Assembly (NCBI GenBank): GCA_033442325.1
Contig: JAWQFM010000002.1
Span: 799,865 to 863,864, forward strand
Length of the DNA stretch: 64,000 nt
Direction of reading: 5' to 3'
DNA from: Salpingoeca rosetta
Taxonomy: Eukaryota; Protista; Choanoflagellata
The translations under genes and the position numbers were made by a program. A model generated the notes under the pieces. The model ran no database searches, was not told the origin of the DNA, and saw only the letters and a list, made by a program, of their open reading frames with translations. This document shows positions 1,893-56,141 of the stretch, piece after piece. The first letter of the stretch is position 1. The number at the start of each line of letters is the position of its first letter.

Positions 1893-2161
1893 AGCTCAGG
1901 CAGGGAAGGACTGCCTTATTGTTGTTGGTGTTGTTGGCGATTAGTGGATACCTTTAACCAGTTTTCGGCAGCGACAGTGCAGTTGATGGACTCGAGTTAC
2001 AACAACCACTGAGATCTCCCCCTTCCTCTGTTTCTTGTCTCACATTAACCTGGCTGATCATAACAAGACCTGCATTTACAACGAGCTGCACTGCATCAAG
2101 TTGAGGCATTACCACAACATTCGCGTCAACCAGCATCGACCAACCAAGGCCAAGGCCAAGT

Positions 2162-3304
2162 ATGGGAGCGATCCGCTTCTACGGACACACAAAGCCGTTT
2201 GGCTTCATGAGCAACTTCTACCCTGCGAAAGTGGTGATTGATGGCCACACATGGCCAACCACAGAACACTACTTCCAAGCCATGAAGTTCCACGACAAAG
2301 ACTACCAGGCCCAGATCCGCAAATACTCATGTGCGACAAGCTTGGCGGTGACCATGCCCACCTCGTTGGCTGGCTTCCTGGCGGAATGTGCGAGCTACAT
2401 CTTGTTCTGTCGTGCCTGCCTCCCCTTGTCGTGTGGCACGCTTCTCACCCAGCATCAACACACACACACGCGCGCACGCACGCACACACACACACACGCA
2501 CGCATGCAAACATCTTATTTGCTTCCACAGCGCCGTCGACTGCAAAGAAGCTTGGTCAAACACGGGCGGTGAAGCTGAGGAGCGACTGGGAGGACGTCAA
2601 GTATGATGTCATGTACAAGGCGTGCTTGGCCAAGTTCACACAACACGCGTAAGCGAAAACACGCGCAGCCTGATGCTTCATCTTGTGCGGTGTATGTGTG
2701 TGTGCCGTGTGTCGATGTGTGTGTGTGCTGATGAATGTGCGCATGTCTACGTGTGTAAATCTACGACGCACTGTGATTGTTGAATGTTCTCCTCACTTCC
2801 TTATACAACCAACAGGGATCTGCGCAAACAGCTGCTGGACACGGGCGACGCAAAGTTGATCGAGGTATTCACTCGGATGCAAATCGCCCCATGCGCCTGC
2901 CTTCGCTGTTGTGACTGACACGCAGGCGTACACGCTGCCCTGCTGGTGTTCGGGTGTGTTTGAATCACTTTGCAGTCGTGCATGCAAACCCCAACTCAAC
3001 ATCCCCACACAGTTCTCACATGTTGTCTATCTGCCTTTGCTTGTTGTTGTGTGTGCAGCACACGAGAAATGACCGGGTATGGGGCGATGGTGGCGATGGC
3101 ACGGGCCAGAACAAGCTCGGCCAGGTCCTGATGGAGGTACGCCGCGAGTTGAGAGAGAAGGGACCCTCACCCGCGCACGCAGCACATGATGTTGCCAAGG
3201 CGACTGACAACGCCGACGATGATGGTGATGCTGGCGATGACGATGATGATGGCGAGGAGGGCACATCAAGCACAACAACTGCTGGCACTACAGGTTCGGC
3301 ATGA
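2162..3304 (+). CDS. NADAR (YbiA-like) domain module; stand-alone stop TGA 3302-3304 if the donor at 3294 is not used
   Basis: FYGHTKPFGFMSNFY...WPTTEHYFQAMKF...SPSTAKKLGQ..VKLRSDWEDVKYDVM....AKFTQHADLRKQLLDTGDAKLIEHTRNDRVWGDGGDGTGQNKLGQVLMEVR, the characteristic NADAR/YbiA motifs. Confidence 0.93.
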
Positions 3305-4849
3305 GGCAACGTGCAAAACGTGTGTATGTGTTTGTGTTTGTGTCTGTCTATGCGTTTGTGTGTGTGTATGTGTTTGTGTGTTGTGTGTGTGTGTGTGTGG
3401 CTGTGTGTCAGTGCGTGACTGTGAGCATGTGTCTTGTGTGACGGGGGTTTTTTTTTTTTTTTTGGATTGTTTCGTCCCTATAAACGTGTGGCGCGTGGTG
3501 TGCTGTAATCATCGTCATCGTCGTGATGCTTCTCGTTGGAATGTGGGAGACGGACATAGTCGAGAGTTGTTGTAGCCGGTGTGCTGCTATTGTTACCACA
3601 CATCCTCGTCCGCTGATGCTTTGTGCTGCTGGGTGTGTCGGCAGACGGCGTGCCCAAGCGTGCAAAGCGCACCATGCTTGACTTTGTGGCCAAGGACACA
3701 GCACCCAGCACATCCCCAACACGCCGAAGGTACGACCAGCCTAACGCGCAGTGTATGCGAGTGTTCGGGGGAGGGAGAGAAGAGGAATGTGGTGGTGTGT
3801 GAGTGTGCGTGTGCGTGTGCGTGTGCATGTGCATGTGCGTGCGAGAGTGTGGGTGTGTGGGGGGGGGGTGTACGTGTGTGGGTGTGTGCTTGTGTGAATG
3901 CAACCGAGGTCTCATGCACGCGCGTGTGCACATACCGGCACACAGTGGAAGGAACGTTGTGCAGTACAAGACGGGGGATCTTCTCAAAGCAACCGAACAG
4001 TGCATTGCACACCAATGCAACGCCGTCTCAACATACGCGAAAGGTGCGCACGTGTTCGTTTGCATGTTCGTGTGTAGGAACGACGCGGGCTTATTGGTGG
4101 CCGTGTTTCATGTCGCCGATCGTGGCTGCTTCAGTAGCATTTCGCAATCACACTCGCACACACGCACACGTATGCACACATATGCACACATACACACGTA
4201 CGCGCATGCACACATGCACACGTGCACGTAAGTGATCAATGCTCCATCCCCCCCCCCTCCCCAATTTGCAGGCTTGTCAAAGGTGATCTTCAGTCGGTAT
4301 CCACAAGCGGATCTGTACACGAAGCAGCACAAGCAAGCGAGCAAGAAGAGCAAGCCCGGCACAACGCAGTTCCATGCAGGCAAGCCGCATTGCGTGATCA
4401 ACATGGTGGCCCAGCGCTCCCCTGGTCGCCCGCGCGCGTCTGAAACCGCAGAGCAGCGGCTGGAATGGTTCAAGGAGTGTCTTGCCAAGATTGCCGCCAA
4501 CAAGGACATTGAATCCGTCGCCTTCCCCTACATGTGAGCACCGCACGCTCGGGACTTGCTTTGTTCCTGCTGCCCTTGTTGCTCGTGTCGTGGTTGCGCG
4601 CTATTGCGAAAGTGCTGTAATGGCGGTTGCATTTTCGCACACGACGCAAGCACACATGCACACACATGCACACACATGCACACACATGCACACACATGCA
4701 TCCTCACACACTCTCACATACACGCACACGCGCGCAGGATTGGGTGTGGCCTCGCTGGTGGCAAGTGGGAAGATTACAAGGCAGCCATTGCTTCGTTTGC
4801 TGCACGCAATCCTCACATCCAAGTCGCCATCTACAAGCTGCCAGCATAA
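2162..4849 (+). CDS. Predicted NADAR-macrodomain fusion protein, 375 aa (exons 2162-2330, 2531-2648, 2816-2864, 3059-3293, 3645-3729, 3946-4043, 4272-4533, 4738-4849)
   Basis: All seven introns are GT-AG and phase-consistent; total 1128 nt = 376 codons including the stop. The joining intron 3294-3644 (ACAG|GTTCGG...CGGCAG|ACGGCG) is phase 1 at both ends. A two-gene reading remains possible. Confidence 0.6.
3645..4849 (+). CDS. Macrodomain module of the ALC1/TARG1/SCO6735 class (alternative own start ATG at 3674)
   Basis: VQYKTGDLL..IAHQCNAVS..AKGLSKVIFSRYP...VINMVAQRSPG...FKECLAKI...SVAFPYMIGCGLAGGKW; GDL, HQCN and PxxIGCGLAGG are macrodomain motifs. Confidence 0.9.
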
Positions 4850-5324: not shown

Positions 5325-5566
5325 TCAATCCCTGTGGAACGGGCGCTGCAACTTGATGGTCTTGCGATCAAACTTGCGGACAACTGCAGCACGGCCCGTC
5401 TTCACCGTTCCTTCTGCACATGGACACGCACGAGAGAGAGGCGGGGGTGGCGGTGGTAGGGAGAAAACAGAGGGTAAGGAGAAAGTAGAATGAGTTAGCG
5501 CACGCATAAAAATCGTGTACACACACAACAACAACAACAACAACAACAACTACAACAACAACAACT

Positions 5567-5629
<63 letters not shown>

Positions 5630-6020
5630 CCTTGCCCATGCGGTATACATGTTCCCCGCAACAGCAACCACACCGCCAACCAGCACAAGCACAAGCAGCA
5701 GCAGCAGCAGCACGACGTACTGTTCTGGTATGCGGCGCGTTCCGCTGCGGAGTTGATGAGCGAAATGCCGGCGTCTTTGTCCGCCTTCGACTTTGCTCTT
5801 TCTTGCAGAAACGCATCCAGCCAACGTTCTTTCTCCTCGTCTGACTTGGCGCATAGGATGTACCTGGTGCAGTGGCCGTGGGTGGGGATGAGTGCAGCAC
5901 AACGAATAACCAGCGTACAACCGCAGCAACAACCACAACACAATACAATACAATCACTCGTATGAACACAACCATGACCACAATCGCAACTCAATACAAT
6001 ACTCGGGCAACCGCACCAAG

Positions 6021-6094
<74 letters not shown>

Positions 6095-7397
6095 ACTTGT
6101 CCTTCTTGTCGTTCTTGATTTTGATGGCGTGGCGCAGGGGTGTTTTCTTAAAGTGATCAGTGTCGTCTGGCATGTTGATGATGGACATGTTGTCGGTGAA
6201 GATCTTCCCCTTCACCACAAGCGCACCCTGCGTAGCAACAACAGTACGGCCGCGCCAGGTGTGAGTGGAGATCACGTGGGCAGATAGATGAAAGAGAGAG
6301 AATGGGTGAGCGAGCATCGGTGAGGAAGCATTTACAAGCAAGTATAAATGCCTTTGTACCAATTCGTGTCTCGAACAACAGCAAAAACAGGGGCAAGTAG
6401 CTCCAAGCAAGCAAGCAAACACCACATGCGTACCTTGAGTGAGCGCTTGCAATAGATCATGAGGTTATCAAACAGGTAGAAGTAGCGCTCCTGTGCACTC
6501 CGCCCCGAAATCTGCACGAGACGTGCGTTGTGAGGACAATGAGCAGGCGTAGCCAGACATGAGAGAACATGGTTAAACTGTGCTCATCACAACGCACTCG
6601 CAAGGACGACGACAACAACAACAACTTAAAAAAACCAACTTAAACAACAACAACAACTTCACCAACAAATAAACAACTTAAACAACAACAACAACAGCCG
6701 GACCTTGACGAGCGGGCCGTCGTGAATGAGCTGCGTGCTCCACGTGGCGATGTCGGGACCCGTCCAGTTCTCGAGACTCCGCTGCAGGCGATCAAGCTCC
6801 TCTTTGTGCCGCCGGTCGTCGTTGATGGTCGCAGCCATCGCCTGAACACATTTGTAAACAATGTCACACACGATGCATCCACGCAGATATGCGCATGCAG
6901 GAAGGGTGGGTGATGGAGGTTGTGAGGACGTTCAAGATACACCAAGTGCTCCGTGACTATCAGTCGTGCACATGTGAAGGCGCACAGAACGACACACACA
7001 CACACACGCACACACACATCCACACACACACACGTGTGTGTGTAAACGCACCTCCATCTGTGTGAGAGCCTGGACAGCGTTTGCGTGATCGGGGTGGTTC
7101 TCCGGGGTGTACTTGACAAGCTGCTTGAGGAGAAGCGGGTAGCGGCACACGCGCTGCACGGGCTCAAGCAGGAAACCGGGCAGCTCAAGTTCATTCTCGC
7201 CCATGATCAGGCGGCAGCCCTCAAGGAACGACTCAATCTGCACACACACGCAGGGAGAGAGAGGTAGACAGACAGAGAGAGAGAGAGAGCACGCAGGTAT
7301 GCATGGAACGAAGTGGCAAAGACATGTGACGTATGAGCAAATGTGCAGAAAATAAAGGCGTAACAACCACACTCACACCGGCAATCTCGGCGTACAC

Positions 7398-7456
<59 letters not shown>

Positions 7457-8936
7457 AACGCACAACACACACACACCAACGCACAACACGCGAATGTACA
7501 CCGCGAGCACACTACATCTTCCACCCCCCCCCATGTGTCTCTGCCACCACTGGAACGGGACCTGGATGTCGCCCTTCTGCACGGCGTCAAGCTCCTGCGT
7601 CGCCTTCTGGTGGTTGTTGCAGTAGATGGAGTACGCCTTGAACCGCTCAGAGTGGTTCGCAAAGCACAGGCCAACAGCTGCAGTGGAAACGCACGCGTGC
7701 ATGCAAAACAGCAGCAGGGCAACGTGCATGCGAAGAAAGCAACGTAATGAGCTCGAACCATTGGCACGCGCGTATGCATACGACACAATCAAGGTCGCTT
7801 CACACCCGACTTCGGACATCACGCGCACAGCACAAGCAGATGCACACAACATTGTTGATGCCGCAGCGGCAATGCACGACCCGTGTGCTCACCGTCGTTT
7901 TCCGCCGCTGGGCGCAGTTCCCGCAGAAACTTCTCGTTGAGCTGGTGGATCTGCTCAATGTTGCCGAAGATGACGTTGATGCTCTGGACACACAGAGAGA
8001 GACAGAGAGTGTGTGTGGGGGGGACGTGTGAGTGAGTGAGCGGATGGGTGTCGTAAGCATTTTGTCAGAGTAGCATGGTGCAACCATGAATCCGAGCAAG
8101 GAATGTATGTATTCCACCCCTTAGCATGTTAACATGTGCGTGTATTCCGGTTGATGATATGATCACCTCTTCGTCGAACAGCTGCCCGATGCGTTGCCGC
8201 ATTGGAATGACATAACCCGTCACAACCTTTGCCAGCTTCGACACATAGTCCTGACATTGAGAAAAGTGAGGGAAGGAGACGGAGACAAACAGACGCGGGC
8301 CACAAATGCGGCGAGCAACGCTTGAAGTGTGAGCACTGAAGAAACAACGGTGGTGTGCTTGTTCCTCCACATGGTGTGGTGTGTGATGCGTGGGTAGCTC
8401 GAGCTCTGTGACCTGAACGACAATCATCGGCAGCAACACGACGGAATCATGCACAGCAGAGCGATACAATGACACAAACCTCTTCTGTCTTGACAATCTC
8501 TGCAACGACATTCTTGCGCTTCTCTGCCATCTTTTCCCTGAAGGAACAAACACAAATGGCGCATGATGGGCATATGAGTTGTTGCGCATGCCAGAGACAG
8601 CTTCAACATCAACCGACACCAACCGACACAGGCAAAGTAATGTTACGGCCAACACCAGCCAGGTAACTGCCAACACCAACCAACACTCGCCATGGGCAAC
8701 GAGGGACGTACACATGCGGGTCGAGGGCGCGCTGCAGCTGCTGCTGTTGCATATCTTCGACTGTCGCGTCGTCGTCTTCCAGCAGCTTCACATACGACGC
8801 AGGGAACCAACCTGGCCACGACACAGCACGCACGTGCATGCAGAGGGAAATGCAATGAGACGTGGGCAAGCAAACACATGCTGTCGTCGACCTCAAGGTG
8901 ATAGCAGAGGGCAACCCCCATGAGATGTCTGTGCCA

Positions 8937-9015
<79 letters not shown>

Positions 9016-12000
9016 ACACACAACACCCAACATGCAAACACATACATACGCACACACAATACACACCTTCGTGTTCGCCAATAGCGCCAGACCACCAGGG
9101 ATCGTCCTCTTCGCAGCTGAGAATCTCGATGGTGTCGCCCGCATGGAACGACAGCTCAGAGTCGGACGTCGCTGCAAAGTCGTACAGCGCACGCGCATAC
9201 AGCGGCTGTTGCGCACGTACGCGTGATGTGTGGAGAAGTGTAAGTGCACAAACAGGGAGAGCAGTGCAACGCATGCATGCGGACTGTTAAGGGCCCACCA
9301 CCAACAACGCCAACAAAGGGGGCAGGTCACACCAAATTGCGCTACAGCAGCTCACCTCCTCCTCATCAAACTCGTCGTCGTAGTCTGCTGCCGCCTCCTG
9401 ACTGTCGACCATCATCGCTTCCTCCTCATCATCATCTGTGTTGCCTTCCTCACCCACATCACCCGTATGCACGTGCTCATCCGCTGGCTCGCCCTTGCTC
9501 TCCCCTTCTTGCTGCGGTTCTTGTTGGTGCTGTTGCTGCTCTTCCTCTTGTTGCTCCTCCTCTTGTTGCTGCTCTTGCTGTTGCTGCTGCTGTTGCGGTT
9601 GGGTGTGTGAACTGCTGTCATCTCCTTGAGCAGCAAACGGATTCATGGCCGAAAAACCATCCCCCCTGCACGCACACCACACACATATGCACATACACAC
9701 GTACGGGTATGAGCATGCGACAGGAAGACAAACAGTGTCAGACACATCAGAGAGTGCCTTGGCAACAAGGTGTAGCGACTGACATTGCAACTGAGATGGG
9801 TCGGCTGCGCGGTTTCGACTGGCGATTCCATGATGGCGCTGTTGTTTCCGCCTGTTGTACACACACAAACGTACAGAGAGGTGGGGAGAAGACGTGAGGA
9901 GTGCGAGGATCATCGAACACTCACGACACACACACGCACACATATGCACACACACGCACACAAGCTTGCTACCTGCTGTTCGCTGGGCTGCTGCTGCTGT
10001 TGCTGCTGTTGCTGCTGCTGCTCAGCAGGTGTTGAAACTGTGTCTTCATCGGTGGATGTCTCCGCCGTGTGTGCACGGACGTAATCGCACGGGAAGAACC
10101 CACATCGTCCTGGCAAGGAACAGTCACGGCGAGTCACAGACGTACACGAGCCAACACGTAAGCTGCATGCACGTGTACTCACGTGCACACATGCAAAGAT
10201 GTACGCATGCACACATGCTTACAATCGCGCGCGCACACGCATGCACACACGCACAAACAAACGCATGCACTCACCCGTGCATTCCCCAAACCACCATGGG
10301 CAGGATGGATTGTTATCAATGACATTCACGAGATCTCCGGTGCGCAGTGCAAGCTCGTCCGCCTCCTGCCATCACGCATACAACAAGACGCGTGAGCAAC
10401 TTGGAATGCACGCAGGGAATACACACGTGCACACGTGCAGGTACGCACACGTGCAGGTACGCACACCTGCACACACACACACACACTCACGAACACACGA
10501 ACACACGAACACGCACGCACACACACACGCACACACACACACGTAGGGATTTGGTGACTTACGGTGCCATCAAAGTCGTGACATGCCACTGCTTGGAATT
10601 TGACAGCGTATGTCTGTCCAGACACCTAACACACAGAGAACAAGTCACCATGGAATGCCATGCAATCAGCATATATTGCGCCAGGTTCAGTCATGAGTGC
10701 AGTCATGCTCAGACTTTTACACATGCAGCACACATGCACACACACACACACACGTGCGCACACACGCACACGTGCGCACACCTGGACGTTCTTGGGTGGC
10801 TCGCCCAATTGCAGCAGCTTCTGTTCAACAGATGCCGCTGTTGTTTCTGCTGCCGTTGTGTGCTCTTGCTGCTGCTCAGCGTGGCCACCGGCTGTTGTCT
10901 CGGCATCTGCGTTCGCCTCAGCCTCCACAGGTGCGTTCTGCTCAGGCCCAGACTGCTCATGTTGTATGCTTAGTTCGTGTGCTGCCGCTGCTTCCTCCTG
11001 TGCTGTCTCCGCCTGGGTCTTTACCTCCGCGCCCTCAACCTGGCTCTGTTCGCCAGACTGTTCTGCTTTCTCCCTTTCCTCCTCCCCCTCTCGTCGTTCT
11101 CTCTTTTGCTCTTGGTCTTCGTCGTGTTCTTCTCTCGTGTCAACGGCTGCTGCCTCCTCATCGGCCTGCTGCTGCTGCTGCTGCTGCTGCTGCGCCTGCT
11201 GCTGCGCGATGTCGGCCTCGTCCTGCGCTGGCTGCACAGCTTCATCGAGCTGCTCGGGTTGGAGTTCCTCCTGTGCATGGTCGGTGTTTGCAACAGCTAC
11301 CTCTTCACTCGGCTCAAGCTGCTGCTGCTGCTGCTGCGGCCGCTCTTCCTTTTGTTGTTCTTCTTCTTGCTGCTGTTGTTCCTCCTCTTGCTGCTGCTGC
11401 TGCTGCTGTTGCGTGTGTGGTTCATCTGCAGGGGGCTGTGCTGCGTCTTGTGTACGTGCTCTCGGCTTTGGCAGCCCAACCATTGACAAGGGTCTCGACG
11501 AAGGCCCACGTCGCTGCTGCTGCTGCTGCTGTTGTTGTTGTTGCTGCTGCTGTTGCTGCTGCTGTTGCTGCTGTTGATTGATGAGCGCTTCAAAGGGGTT
11601 GGCAATCCTGCCTGGCGTCCGCCTTGGCGGCTCAGCCTTCTTGCTGGCCTGTGCAGCTTGCCCTGTGAACACAGACGGGATTTTCAGTCGAGACTCCGAC
11701 TTGCGCTTTGAAGGCAAAGGGGCCGTTGTCTCCTGAGATGCGGGTGATGATGCGGGGGAAGATGAAGGTGGCAGTGGCGGTGTCCTCACAGGTCTCGCCG
11801 TGGCGCTGCTCTGTGACGGCGGCTGGGGTTGTTGATCTTGCAGCTGCCTCTGTTGCTGCTGATGCTGCTTGACCTCGAGCAAGGCTGTTCGCAACGCAGT
11901 CTCGTCCCCTTCTGCCAGCGCCTTTGACAGGCGCTTGAGCTTGTCTGGTTTGCTTGGCGGCGCGGGTCGCGGTCGTGCTGTAGGTTTCATGGGCGACGAC

Positions 12001-46571: not shown

Positions 46572-56141
<9,570 letters not shown>

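What the first reader, a model, noticed from the sequence alone, without database searches (positions are those of the whole stretch)
2162..4849. Eukaryotic NADAR plus macrodomain fusion: a candidate two-domain DNA/nucleotide de-ADP-ribosylase ('dual DarG')
Seen: a spliced NADAR ORF is followed 350 bp later on the same strand by a spliced macrodomain. A phase-1 donor (3294) and phase-1 acceptor (3644) join them in frame into a 375-aa protein. Established: NADAR is the antitoxin of DarT1 (guanine ADP-ribosylation) and macrodomains (DarG2, TARG1, SCO6735) reverse DarT2 thymidine ADP-ribosylation; phages carry orphan versions of such erasers. Inference: a bacterivorous protist may have joined both eraser folds into one enzyme against ADP-ribosylating toxins from prey or viruses, or for its own DNA-ADP-ribose repair. 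No DarT/ART toxin gene is present in the window, so this is an orphan eraser. Caveat: the NADAR looks closest to E. coli YbiA-type proteins, which are described as riboflavin-intermediate N-glycosidases, so DNA activity is not guaranteed.
Basis: partly seen in the sequence, partly recalled or inferred. Interest (0 to 1): 0.85.

Follow-up and report, generated by a model that had tools for sequence, protein, structure and literature searches.

The report
Choanoflagellate two-domain ADP-ribose eraser
This choanoflagellate gene is transcribed as one spliced mRNA encoding a protein that joins two unrelated domains predicted to strip ADP-ribose from different DNA/RNA bases and from proteins; similar pairings occur in viruses and bacteria, and here it may stand in for an eraser enzyme that these closest relatives of animals are reported to lack.

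Summary
The fusion is real. Eight exons give a 375-aa protein, and the NADAR–macrodomain junction is spliced in 31, 3 and 52 reads of three RNA runs (one study) and in a contig from a second study. It equals a Salpingoeca rosetta record. The same domain order occurs in three other named choanoflagellates.

The NADAR is YbiA-type with its catalytic residues. The macrodomain belongs to the TARG1/DarG/ALC1 class but has glutamine, as in SCO6735, where DarG and TARG1 have lysine. It sits in a separate, virus-rich subfamily, fused to uracil-DNA glycosylase in some relatives.

'Dual DarG' overstates it: neither half is a DarG, and E. coli YbiA does not rescue DarT1 in cells. Tandem NADAR+Macro proteins are already in print for viruses, and reverse-order fusions occur in Planctomycetota.

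Best reading (0.55, untested): a two-site eraser of mono-ADP-ribose on G/C bases, T bases and acidic residues, possibly replacing TARG1/MacroD, which a 2014 survey found missing in choanoflagellates. The scan had not noted this before.

The parts
2162..4849 (+). Eight-exon gene for a 375-aa NADAR-linker-macrodomain protein
2162..2330 (+). Exon 1 (aa 1-56), NADAR; holds E35 (2264-2266) and K42 (2285-2287)
2531..2648 (+). Exon 2, NADAR; holds K62, G65, W76, K80
2816..2864 (+). Exon 3, NADAR; ends in E112, the YbiA-family glutamate
3059..3293 (+). Exon 4: end of NADAR (to about 3160; D117, W120) and the acidic first half of the linker
3294..3644 (+). Intron 4 (351 nt, phase 1, GT..AG) whose removal joins the two domains
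   Evidence: 31, 3, 52 reads and one contig
3645..3729 (+). Exon 5: second half of the disordered linker, with a basic NLS-like and PIP-box-like stretch (3656-3688, aa 195-205; patterns recalled, not conserved)
3946..4043 (+). Exon 6: start of macrodomain (D230, H241, Q242, N244, K251)
4272..4533 (+). Exon 7: macrodomain core; Q299 (4412-4414) and a long basic loop after it
4738..4849 (+). Exon 8: glycine-rich phosphate-binding loop (G343), end of macrodomain, stop codon
   Evidence: loose ends

Best explanation
One spliced gene encodes a YbiA-type NADAR and a glutamine-type TARG1/DarG-class macrodomain on a flexible linker, and the protein likely works as a two-site eraser: the NADAR is predicted to remove ADP-ribose from guanine and cytosine in single-stranded DNA or RNA, and the macrodomain from thymine and from acidic protein residues. 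Shown: one transcript, both folds, conserved active-site residues, a disordered linker. Inferred from characterised relatives: the substrates. Inferred more weakly: that it serves as a general mono-ADP-ribose clean-up enzyme, filling the place of TARG1/MacroD in choanoflagellates, whatever writes the mark (the cell's own PARPs, viruses or bacterial toxins).
For: NADAR: E35, K42, E112, D117, W120 align with E43, K50, E125, D130, W133 of Phytophthora NADAR (alignment counted by hand; roles from PMC11543638). E112, D117, W120 are in 11 of 11 aligned fusions, E35 and K42 in 10 of 11 (one gap). All NADAR subtypes tested, YbiA included, hydrolyse G-ADPr, and YbiA types also C-ADPr. Macrodomain: H241, N244, K251, Q299, G343 align with SCO6735 H24, N27, K34, Q85, G128. 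Q85A abolishes SCO6735 activity on DNA and protein, N27S nearly abolishes it on DNA (PMC9411070). Q299 is in 78 of 78 macrodomains scoring over 60 bits on my profile. Model: domains well predicted, residues 151-220 under pLDDT 50, pTM 0.46. Best structural matches: YbiA Z 20.7 (150 aligned, rmsd 2.0), BT1257 Z 18.3 (148, 2.6), DarG 16.8, TARG1 16.6, SCO6735 16.0. Context: this macrodomain type is fused to uracil-DNA glycosylase in P0002, L142, L143, L168 and to RNase H in L198, and lies in a PARP-macro-NADAR gene cluster in one virus lineage. The macrodomain here is basic (net +12; median +2 in 44 viral ones). Choanoflagellates have eight PARP types but were reported to lack MacroD and TARG1 (PMC4245714).
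Against: No activity measured for this protein, and I found no characterised member of its macrodomain subfamily. That subfamily is split from SCO6735 orthologues by a 98/97 branch. Val25, called SCO6735-specific and mechanistically important, is Gln242 here. The glutamine is shared with ALC1, a reader by my recall. Yeast Poa1p, a small-molecule enzyme, matches as well (Z 16.4). Phosphate-binding R79 of Phytophthora NADAR is Q66 here and varies among the fusions. NCBIfam files the NADAR over cut-off as a riboflavin-intermediate N-glycosidase. The PARP link is one clade, which does not contain the choanoflagellate sequences; PARP was near 1 of 80 metagenome loci. NLS-like motifs occur in 5 of 11 fusions and PIP-like in 2 of 11, with patterns written after seeing the sequences. 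The lack of TARG1/MacroD comes from a 2014 survey that I could not recheck (no genome held).
Confidence: 0.55

Rival explanations
1. Small-molecule clean-up: the macrodomain hydrolyses ADP-ribose-1''-phosphate or O-acetyl-ADP-ribose, as Poa1p and TARG1 do, and the NADAR cleaves soluble N-glycosidic ADP-ribose derivatives or riboflavin intermediates.
For: Poa1p ties with DarG/TARG1 in structure (Z 16.0-16.4) and ranks third in the profile search. TIGR02464 at 148.7 bits against 73.7. Iyer et al. propose that DNA-virus Macro/NADAR pairs mostly target soluble ADPr derivatives. One relative is fused to DUF4326, which that paper ties to the same pathway.
Against: No riboflavin gene among the window ORFs scanned (genome-wide presence not tested). 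UDG and RNase H fusions and the basic surface point to nucleic acid. Not exclusive of the best explanation: TARG1 does both.
Confidence: 0.2
2. One reading: a dedicated antidote to DarT1- and DarT2-like toxins from bacterial prey or viruses.
For: Orphan erasers with this role exist in phages (AdfN, bioRxiv 10.1101/2024.07.11.602962; AdfM, PMC13309987). SCO6735 rescues DarT in E. coli and TARG1 protects human cells from DarT. A ladybird NADAR acquired from bacteria is reported to aid immunity (second-hand).
Against: E. coli YbiA does not rescue DarT1. AdfM has the lysine (K78), not glutamine. DarT found in 0 of 29 virus records carrying this macrodomain type (its own control was silent, though the same profile rang in 2 of 45 bacterial genomes). 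No route for a prey toxin into the nucleus was tested.
Confidence: 0.12
3. One reading: the macrodomain only binds ADP-ribose or PAR, like ALC1, and brings the NADAR to modified chromatin or RNA.
For: Gln85 is shared by SCO6735 and ALC1 homologues; Val25 is not kept; ALC1 matches at Z 14.8.
Against: Most relatives are stand-alone proteins of about 150-190 aa, which fits an enzyme better than a tether; N244 and Q299 are near-invariant.
Confidence: 0.1
4. Two neighbouring genes wrongly joined by the reader.
For: An in-frame ATG at 3674 could start a free macrodomain; the junction was thin in one run (3 reads).
Against: Junction reads in all three runs, a spliced contig from another study, almost no depth in intron 4, and fused homologues in three other choanoflagellates.
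Confidence: 0.01

Closest known systems
Streptomyces coelicolor SCO6735 (PDB 5E3B) and BT1257 (2FG1)
   Same: TARG1/DarG/ALC1 macrodomain class; His, Asn, Lys, Gln and Gly at the tested positions; long loop after the Gln.
   Different: About 26% identity; Gln for Val25; separate branch from SCO6735 orthologues; fused to NADAR.
E. coli YbiA (PDB 2B3W) and YbiA-type NADARs
   Same: E 8e-46, about 50% identity, catalytic Glu/Lys/Glu kept, no N-terminal extension.
   Different: Eukaryotic, intron-bearing, fused to a macrodomain; physiological substrate unknown in both.
DarG1 (NADAR) and DarG2 (macrodomain) antitoxins of DarTG
   Same: Same two fold families, and likely overlapping chemistry on G-ADPr and T-ADPr.
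   Different: No DarT partner found; Glu not Asp subfamily; Gln not Lys; no DarT-binding domain; far below the NCBIfam DarG cut-off.
Viral tandem NADAR+Macro proteins and PARP-macro-NADAR clusters (Iyer et al. 2022, PMC9503650)
   Same: Same pairing of domains; the macrodomain's nearest relatives are in large phage-like and giant-virus records.
   Different: In the viral loci I fetched the two are separate genes in macro-then-NADAR order (0 fused of 61 and 0 of 37, overlapping sets).
Macro-NADAR fusions of Planctomycetota (from my searches; unnamed Atlas clusters also carry both domains)
   Same: Gln-type macrodomain plus YbiA-type NADAR, mostly without DarT.
   Different: Reverse order and a different macrodomain branch: an independent fusion.
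Human TARG1
   Same: Same macrodomain class (Z 16.6); acts on T-ADPr and acidic residues.
   Different: Lys84/Asp125 chemistry, 17% identity, no NADAR; reported absent from choanoflagellates.

Membership tests
NADAR superfamily, YbiA subfamily | NADAR/YbiA fold and profile | tested here: met
   PF08719 147.7 bits; Z 20.7 to 2B3W, 150 aligned, rmsd 2.0
NADAR superfamily, YbiA subfamily | Glutamate in the last strand (Asp in DarG1, His in phage gp30.3) plus Glu and Lys of helix 1 | tested here: met
   E112, E35, K42 against E125, E43, K50
NADAR superfamily, YbiA subfamily | Hydrolysis of G-ADPr or riboflavin intermediates | not testable with these tools
   needs an assay
DarG1 (DarT1-associated NADAR) | Catalytic Asp and N-terminal extension | tested here: not met
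   Glu112; alignment to YbiA starts at residue 4, so no extension
DarG1 / DarG2 antitoxins | Encoded beside a darT toxin gene | tested here: inconclusive
   None among 146 of 610 window ORFs; short exons can be missed and no genome is held
DarG2 / TARG1 | Catalytic lysine (K80 / K84) | tested here: not met
   Q299 aligns with SCO6735 Q85, the stated equivalent of that lysine
DarG2 | C-terminal DarT-binding domain | tested here: not met
   Match covers profile positions 1-147 of 338 and the protein ends there; 30.6 bits against 250
TARG1/DarG/ALC1-like macrodomain class | Fold closer to this class than to MacroD or viral nsP3 types | tested here: met
   Z 16.0-18.3 to BT1257, DarG, TARG1, Poa1p, SCO6735 against 14.4 or less to alphavirus and YmdB types
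SCO6735 subclass | Gln85, Asn27, Gly128 and long mobile loop | tested here: met
   Q299, N244, G343, 15-residue basic loop
SCO6735 subclass | Val/Ile25 and grouping with SCO6735 orthologues | tested here: not met
   Q242 (71 of 78); separated by a 98/97 branch (P0323 confirmed as SCO6735-like)
SCO6735 subclass | T-ADPr and Glu-ADPr hydrolysis | not testable with these tools
   needs an assay

The most novel reading that the evidence does not exclude
Choanoflagellates replaced the TARG1/MacroD erasers with a virus-type macrodomain welded to a bacterial-type NADAR, giving one enzyme that clears ADP-ribose from G, C and T bases and from acidic residues; this would imply routine DNA or RNA base ADP-ribosylation in the closest relatives of animals and give the first activity for a large uncharacterised macrodomain subfamily.
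Probability: 0.25. Interest if true: 0.7.

Novelty: new variant of a known kind. Interest (0 to 1): 0.42.

Why it matters
The physiological job of eukaryotic NADARs, and whether eukaryotes carry base ADP-ribosylation of their own on G, C or T, are stated as open in the papers read. This gene is expressed, kept in four choanoflagellates, and sits in a species where knockouts are feasible (my knowledge), so one set of assays and one knockout would address both. It also offers a candidate for the missing mono-ADP-ribose eraser in choanoflagellates, and a handle on a macrodomain subfamily that Pfam mostly misses (over cut-off in 2 of 11 fusions). The architecture itself is not a surprise.

Tried and rejected
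No whole genome is held, so paralogues, DarT-like writers, riboflavin genes, TARG1 and MacroD could not be checked genome-wide. No listed holder run was on record as RNA; evidence comes from the lay. The NADAR tree was unresolved (70 rows, 3 starred branches), so no donor is claimed. A single origin of the eukaryotic fusions is not shown: a quick tree grouped ten of them at SH-aLRT 89, but the careful tree of 61 rows gave only 82/57 for the four choanoflagellates plus four others, with three more fusions apart; no AU test was run. Transfer from a virus is therefore a lead, not a result. A PARP partnership as the general rule was rejected: the clustered viruses are one clade. A DarT gene next to locus L075 was rejected: the hit is on another contig number and the same coordinates in L075 gave no family. 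PIP-box and NLS readings are weak. Phage genomes: 811 records match, none covers 80% of the protein. Literature: ten searches listed no paper describing this protein or a choanoflagellate NADAR-macro fusion. De Souza and Aravind 2012, which defined NADAR and its architectures, is not held and may show it. The one held supplement of PMC9503650 did not contain the word NADAR, so its architecture tables were not seen. No complex prediction was run.

Full report
Observation. The region holds an eight-exon gene on the + strand: 2162-2330, 2531-2648, 2816-2864, 3059-3293, 3645-3729, 3946-4043, 4272-4533 and 4738-4849. It gives 1128 nt and 375 aa, with GT..AG at all seven introns. Three stranded raw-read RNA runs of one study and one contig set of another were laid on 1950-4560. 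Introns 1-6 appear as joints. The joint that fuses the domains is in 31, 3 and 52 reads. One 1256-nt contig carries exons 1-7 and continues into exon 8 sequence. Depth inside intron 4 is near zero. The last join rests on loose ends only. The raw reads differ from the window at 15 listed places, so they come from another strain or allele. A search with exon 7 returned P0001, named swarming motility protein YbiA of Salpingoeca rosetta, with the same sequence as my model.

Anatomy. Residues 1-146 are a NADAR (Pfam 147.7 bits), about 147-220 an acidic linker, and 221-375 a macrodomain (24.8 bits, cut-off 22). AlphaFold on an 11-row alignment gives two confident domains, pLDDT under 50 for 151-220 and pTM 0.46, so no fixed interface is predicted. 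The NADAR is closest to E. coli YbiA (E 8e-46; Z 20.7, 150 aligned, rmsd 2.0). Counting along the alignment to Phytophthora NADAR, E35, K42, E112, D117 and W120 match E43, K50, E125, D130 and W133 of PMC11543638 (passages); R79 is Q66 here. E112 makes it YbiA-type, not DarG1. The macrodomain's best solved matches are SCO6735 by sequence (E 4e-10), and BT1257, DarG, TARG1, Poa1p and SCO6735 by structure (Z 18.3 to 16.0). H241, N244, K251, Q299 and G343 align with SCO6735 H24, N27, K34, Q85 and G128. In PMC9411070 (passages) Q85 is the equivalent of the DarG/TARG1 lysine and is needed for activity on thymidine-ADPr DNA and on protein. The same paper calls Val25 specific to SCO6735, and it is Gln242 here; it also notes that ALC1 shares the glutamine.

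Relatives. Among 266 stored proteins, which are only the top hits (120 of 708; 150 of 25,965; plus cluster members), 16 rows have NADAR then macrodomain and 46 the reverse. Named same-order homologues are from Hartaetosiga balthica, Salpingoeca urceolata and Barroeca monosierra; the others are unnamed. Two (P0151, L178) have almost no linker, and L178 is an uninterrupted ORF in a metagenome contig. The reverse order sits in Planctomycetota: 7 of 45 genome loci are fused (six flagged, plus L100 by its full-length match). DarT was found in 2 of those 45 genomes, one of them a fused carrier with two short pieces (completeness not given). The macrodomain's nearest stand-alone relatives are in virus records. 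Of 48 such loci, 29 records were searchable: 6 have a giant-virus capsid, 1 a T4-like capsid, 14 a NADAR, 12 a PARP and 0 a DarT (many are fragments). A careful tree of 61 macrodomains separates this subfamily from SCO6735 orthologues and the planctomycete type (98/97). It groups the four choanoflagellates with four unnamed rows only weakly (82/57). So the pairing arose more than once, and neither one eukaryotic origin nor a viral donor is shown.

Context clues. In 9 of 61 viral loci a WGR-PARP gene with an apparent H-Y-E triad lies within 4 kb of the macrodomain, and 5 of 61 have a NADAR gene beside it. A second, partly overlapping set gave 10 and 10 of 37. None is fused. The ten clustered loci placed in the tree form one clade without the choanoflagellates, and only 1 of 80 metagenome loci had a PARP, so this counts as one event. 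The same macrodomain type is fused to uracil-DNA glycosylase in four records and to RNase H in one, which favours a nucleic-acid substrate. In the window, the neighbours found are ordinary eukaryotic genes (RhoGEF, TIP49, kinesin, WD40, ribosomal proteins); no transferase was found among 146 of 610 ORFs.

Mechanism. Shown: one transcript, two folds, kept active sites. Inferred from PMC11125620 (abstract, introduction, results and discussion read), PMC11833690 and PMC12945103 (passages): YbiA-type NADARs remove ADP-ribose from G and C in DNA and RNA but not from T. Inferred from SCO6735: the macrodomain would remove it from T and from acidic residues. The two specificities are complementary, which is the likely reason the pair recurs. 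For the role in the cell, PMC4245714 (passages and section 3.2) reports eight PARP types in choanoflagellates but no MacroD or TARG1, and no ARH3 in Monosiga. The fusion could fill that gap. I could not recheck those absences. I give the dual macromolecule eraser 0.55, small-molecule clean-up 0.2, a dedicated anti-DarT antidote 0.12 and reader-plus-eraser 0.1. Against the antidote reading, E. coli YbiA does not rescue DarT1 in cells, and the phage anti-DarT2 macrodomain AdfM has the lysine (PMC13309987, passages).

Prior art. [quoted passage not shown] The Atlas holds bacterial clusters with both domains. Ten literature searches listed nothing on this protein or on a choanoflagellate fusion, but the 2012 paper that defined NADAR architectures is not held and may show it. 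Other papers seen: bioRxiv 10.1101/2024.07.11.602962, PMC8883491 and PMC13720257 (passages).

Verdict. A real, expressed and conserved gene; a new eukaryotic variant of a known recurrent pairing, with an uncharacterised macrodomain subtype. It is not a DarG by the defining features tested, though it likely overlaps DarG1 and DarG2 in chemistry. Interest 0.42.

Noticed in passing
L005:2012-4883, L008:537-5134, L009:578-5183, L021:480-5257 and further loci: A lineage of large viruses (records up to about 430 kb, no giant-virus capsid found in those searched) carries a gene cluster WGR-PARP_reg-PARP, macrodomain, NADAR, often with a metallophosphoesterase: a possible self-contained writer-and-two-erasers module. 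One clade (98/89).
   Followed up: partly
P0002, L142:2983-4629, L143:2731-4563, L168:2399-4084: This macrodomain type fused in front of uracil-DNA glycosylase; two are from giant-virus bins, and a Marseillevirus UDG also matches the model.
   Followed up: partly
L062-L067, L100: Planctomycetota Macro-NADAR fusions; L062 has ARPP-1 and ADP-ribosylglycohydrolase genes next door, and in L067 the open frame continues into a DUF488 domain.
   Followed up: partly
window 3162-3191: Loose ends in all three raw-read runs fit an in-frame 30-nt deletion in the linker in that strain; of eight coding differences, two in NADAR are synonymous and one in the macrodomain changes S259.
   Followed up: partly
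window 1977-2161: Several molecules end at 1977 in two runs, a likely transcription start; the 5' leader holds one upstream ATG at 1986 with a short frame.
   Followed up: no
P0177: An unnamed NADAR-macro fusion has an N-terminal part with a weak GIY-YIG match (17.3 bits, under cut-off).
   Followed up: no
window 5371-9290 (- strand): Convergent neighbour with RhoGEF and PH matches and an SH3-like exon by eye.
   Followed up: no
window 50472-56138: Mcl1_mid and HMG-box matches suggest a WDHD1/Ctf4-like replication gene.
   Followed up: no
L080:3563-4978: A PARP-like gene directly upstream of a planctomycete-type macrodomain in an Armatimonadetes genome.
   Followed up: no
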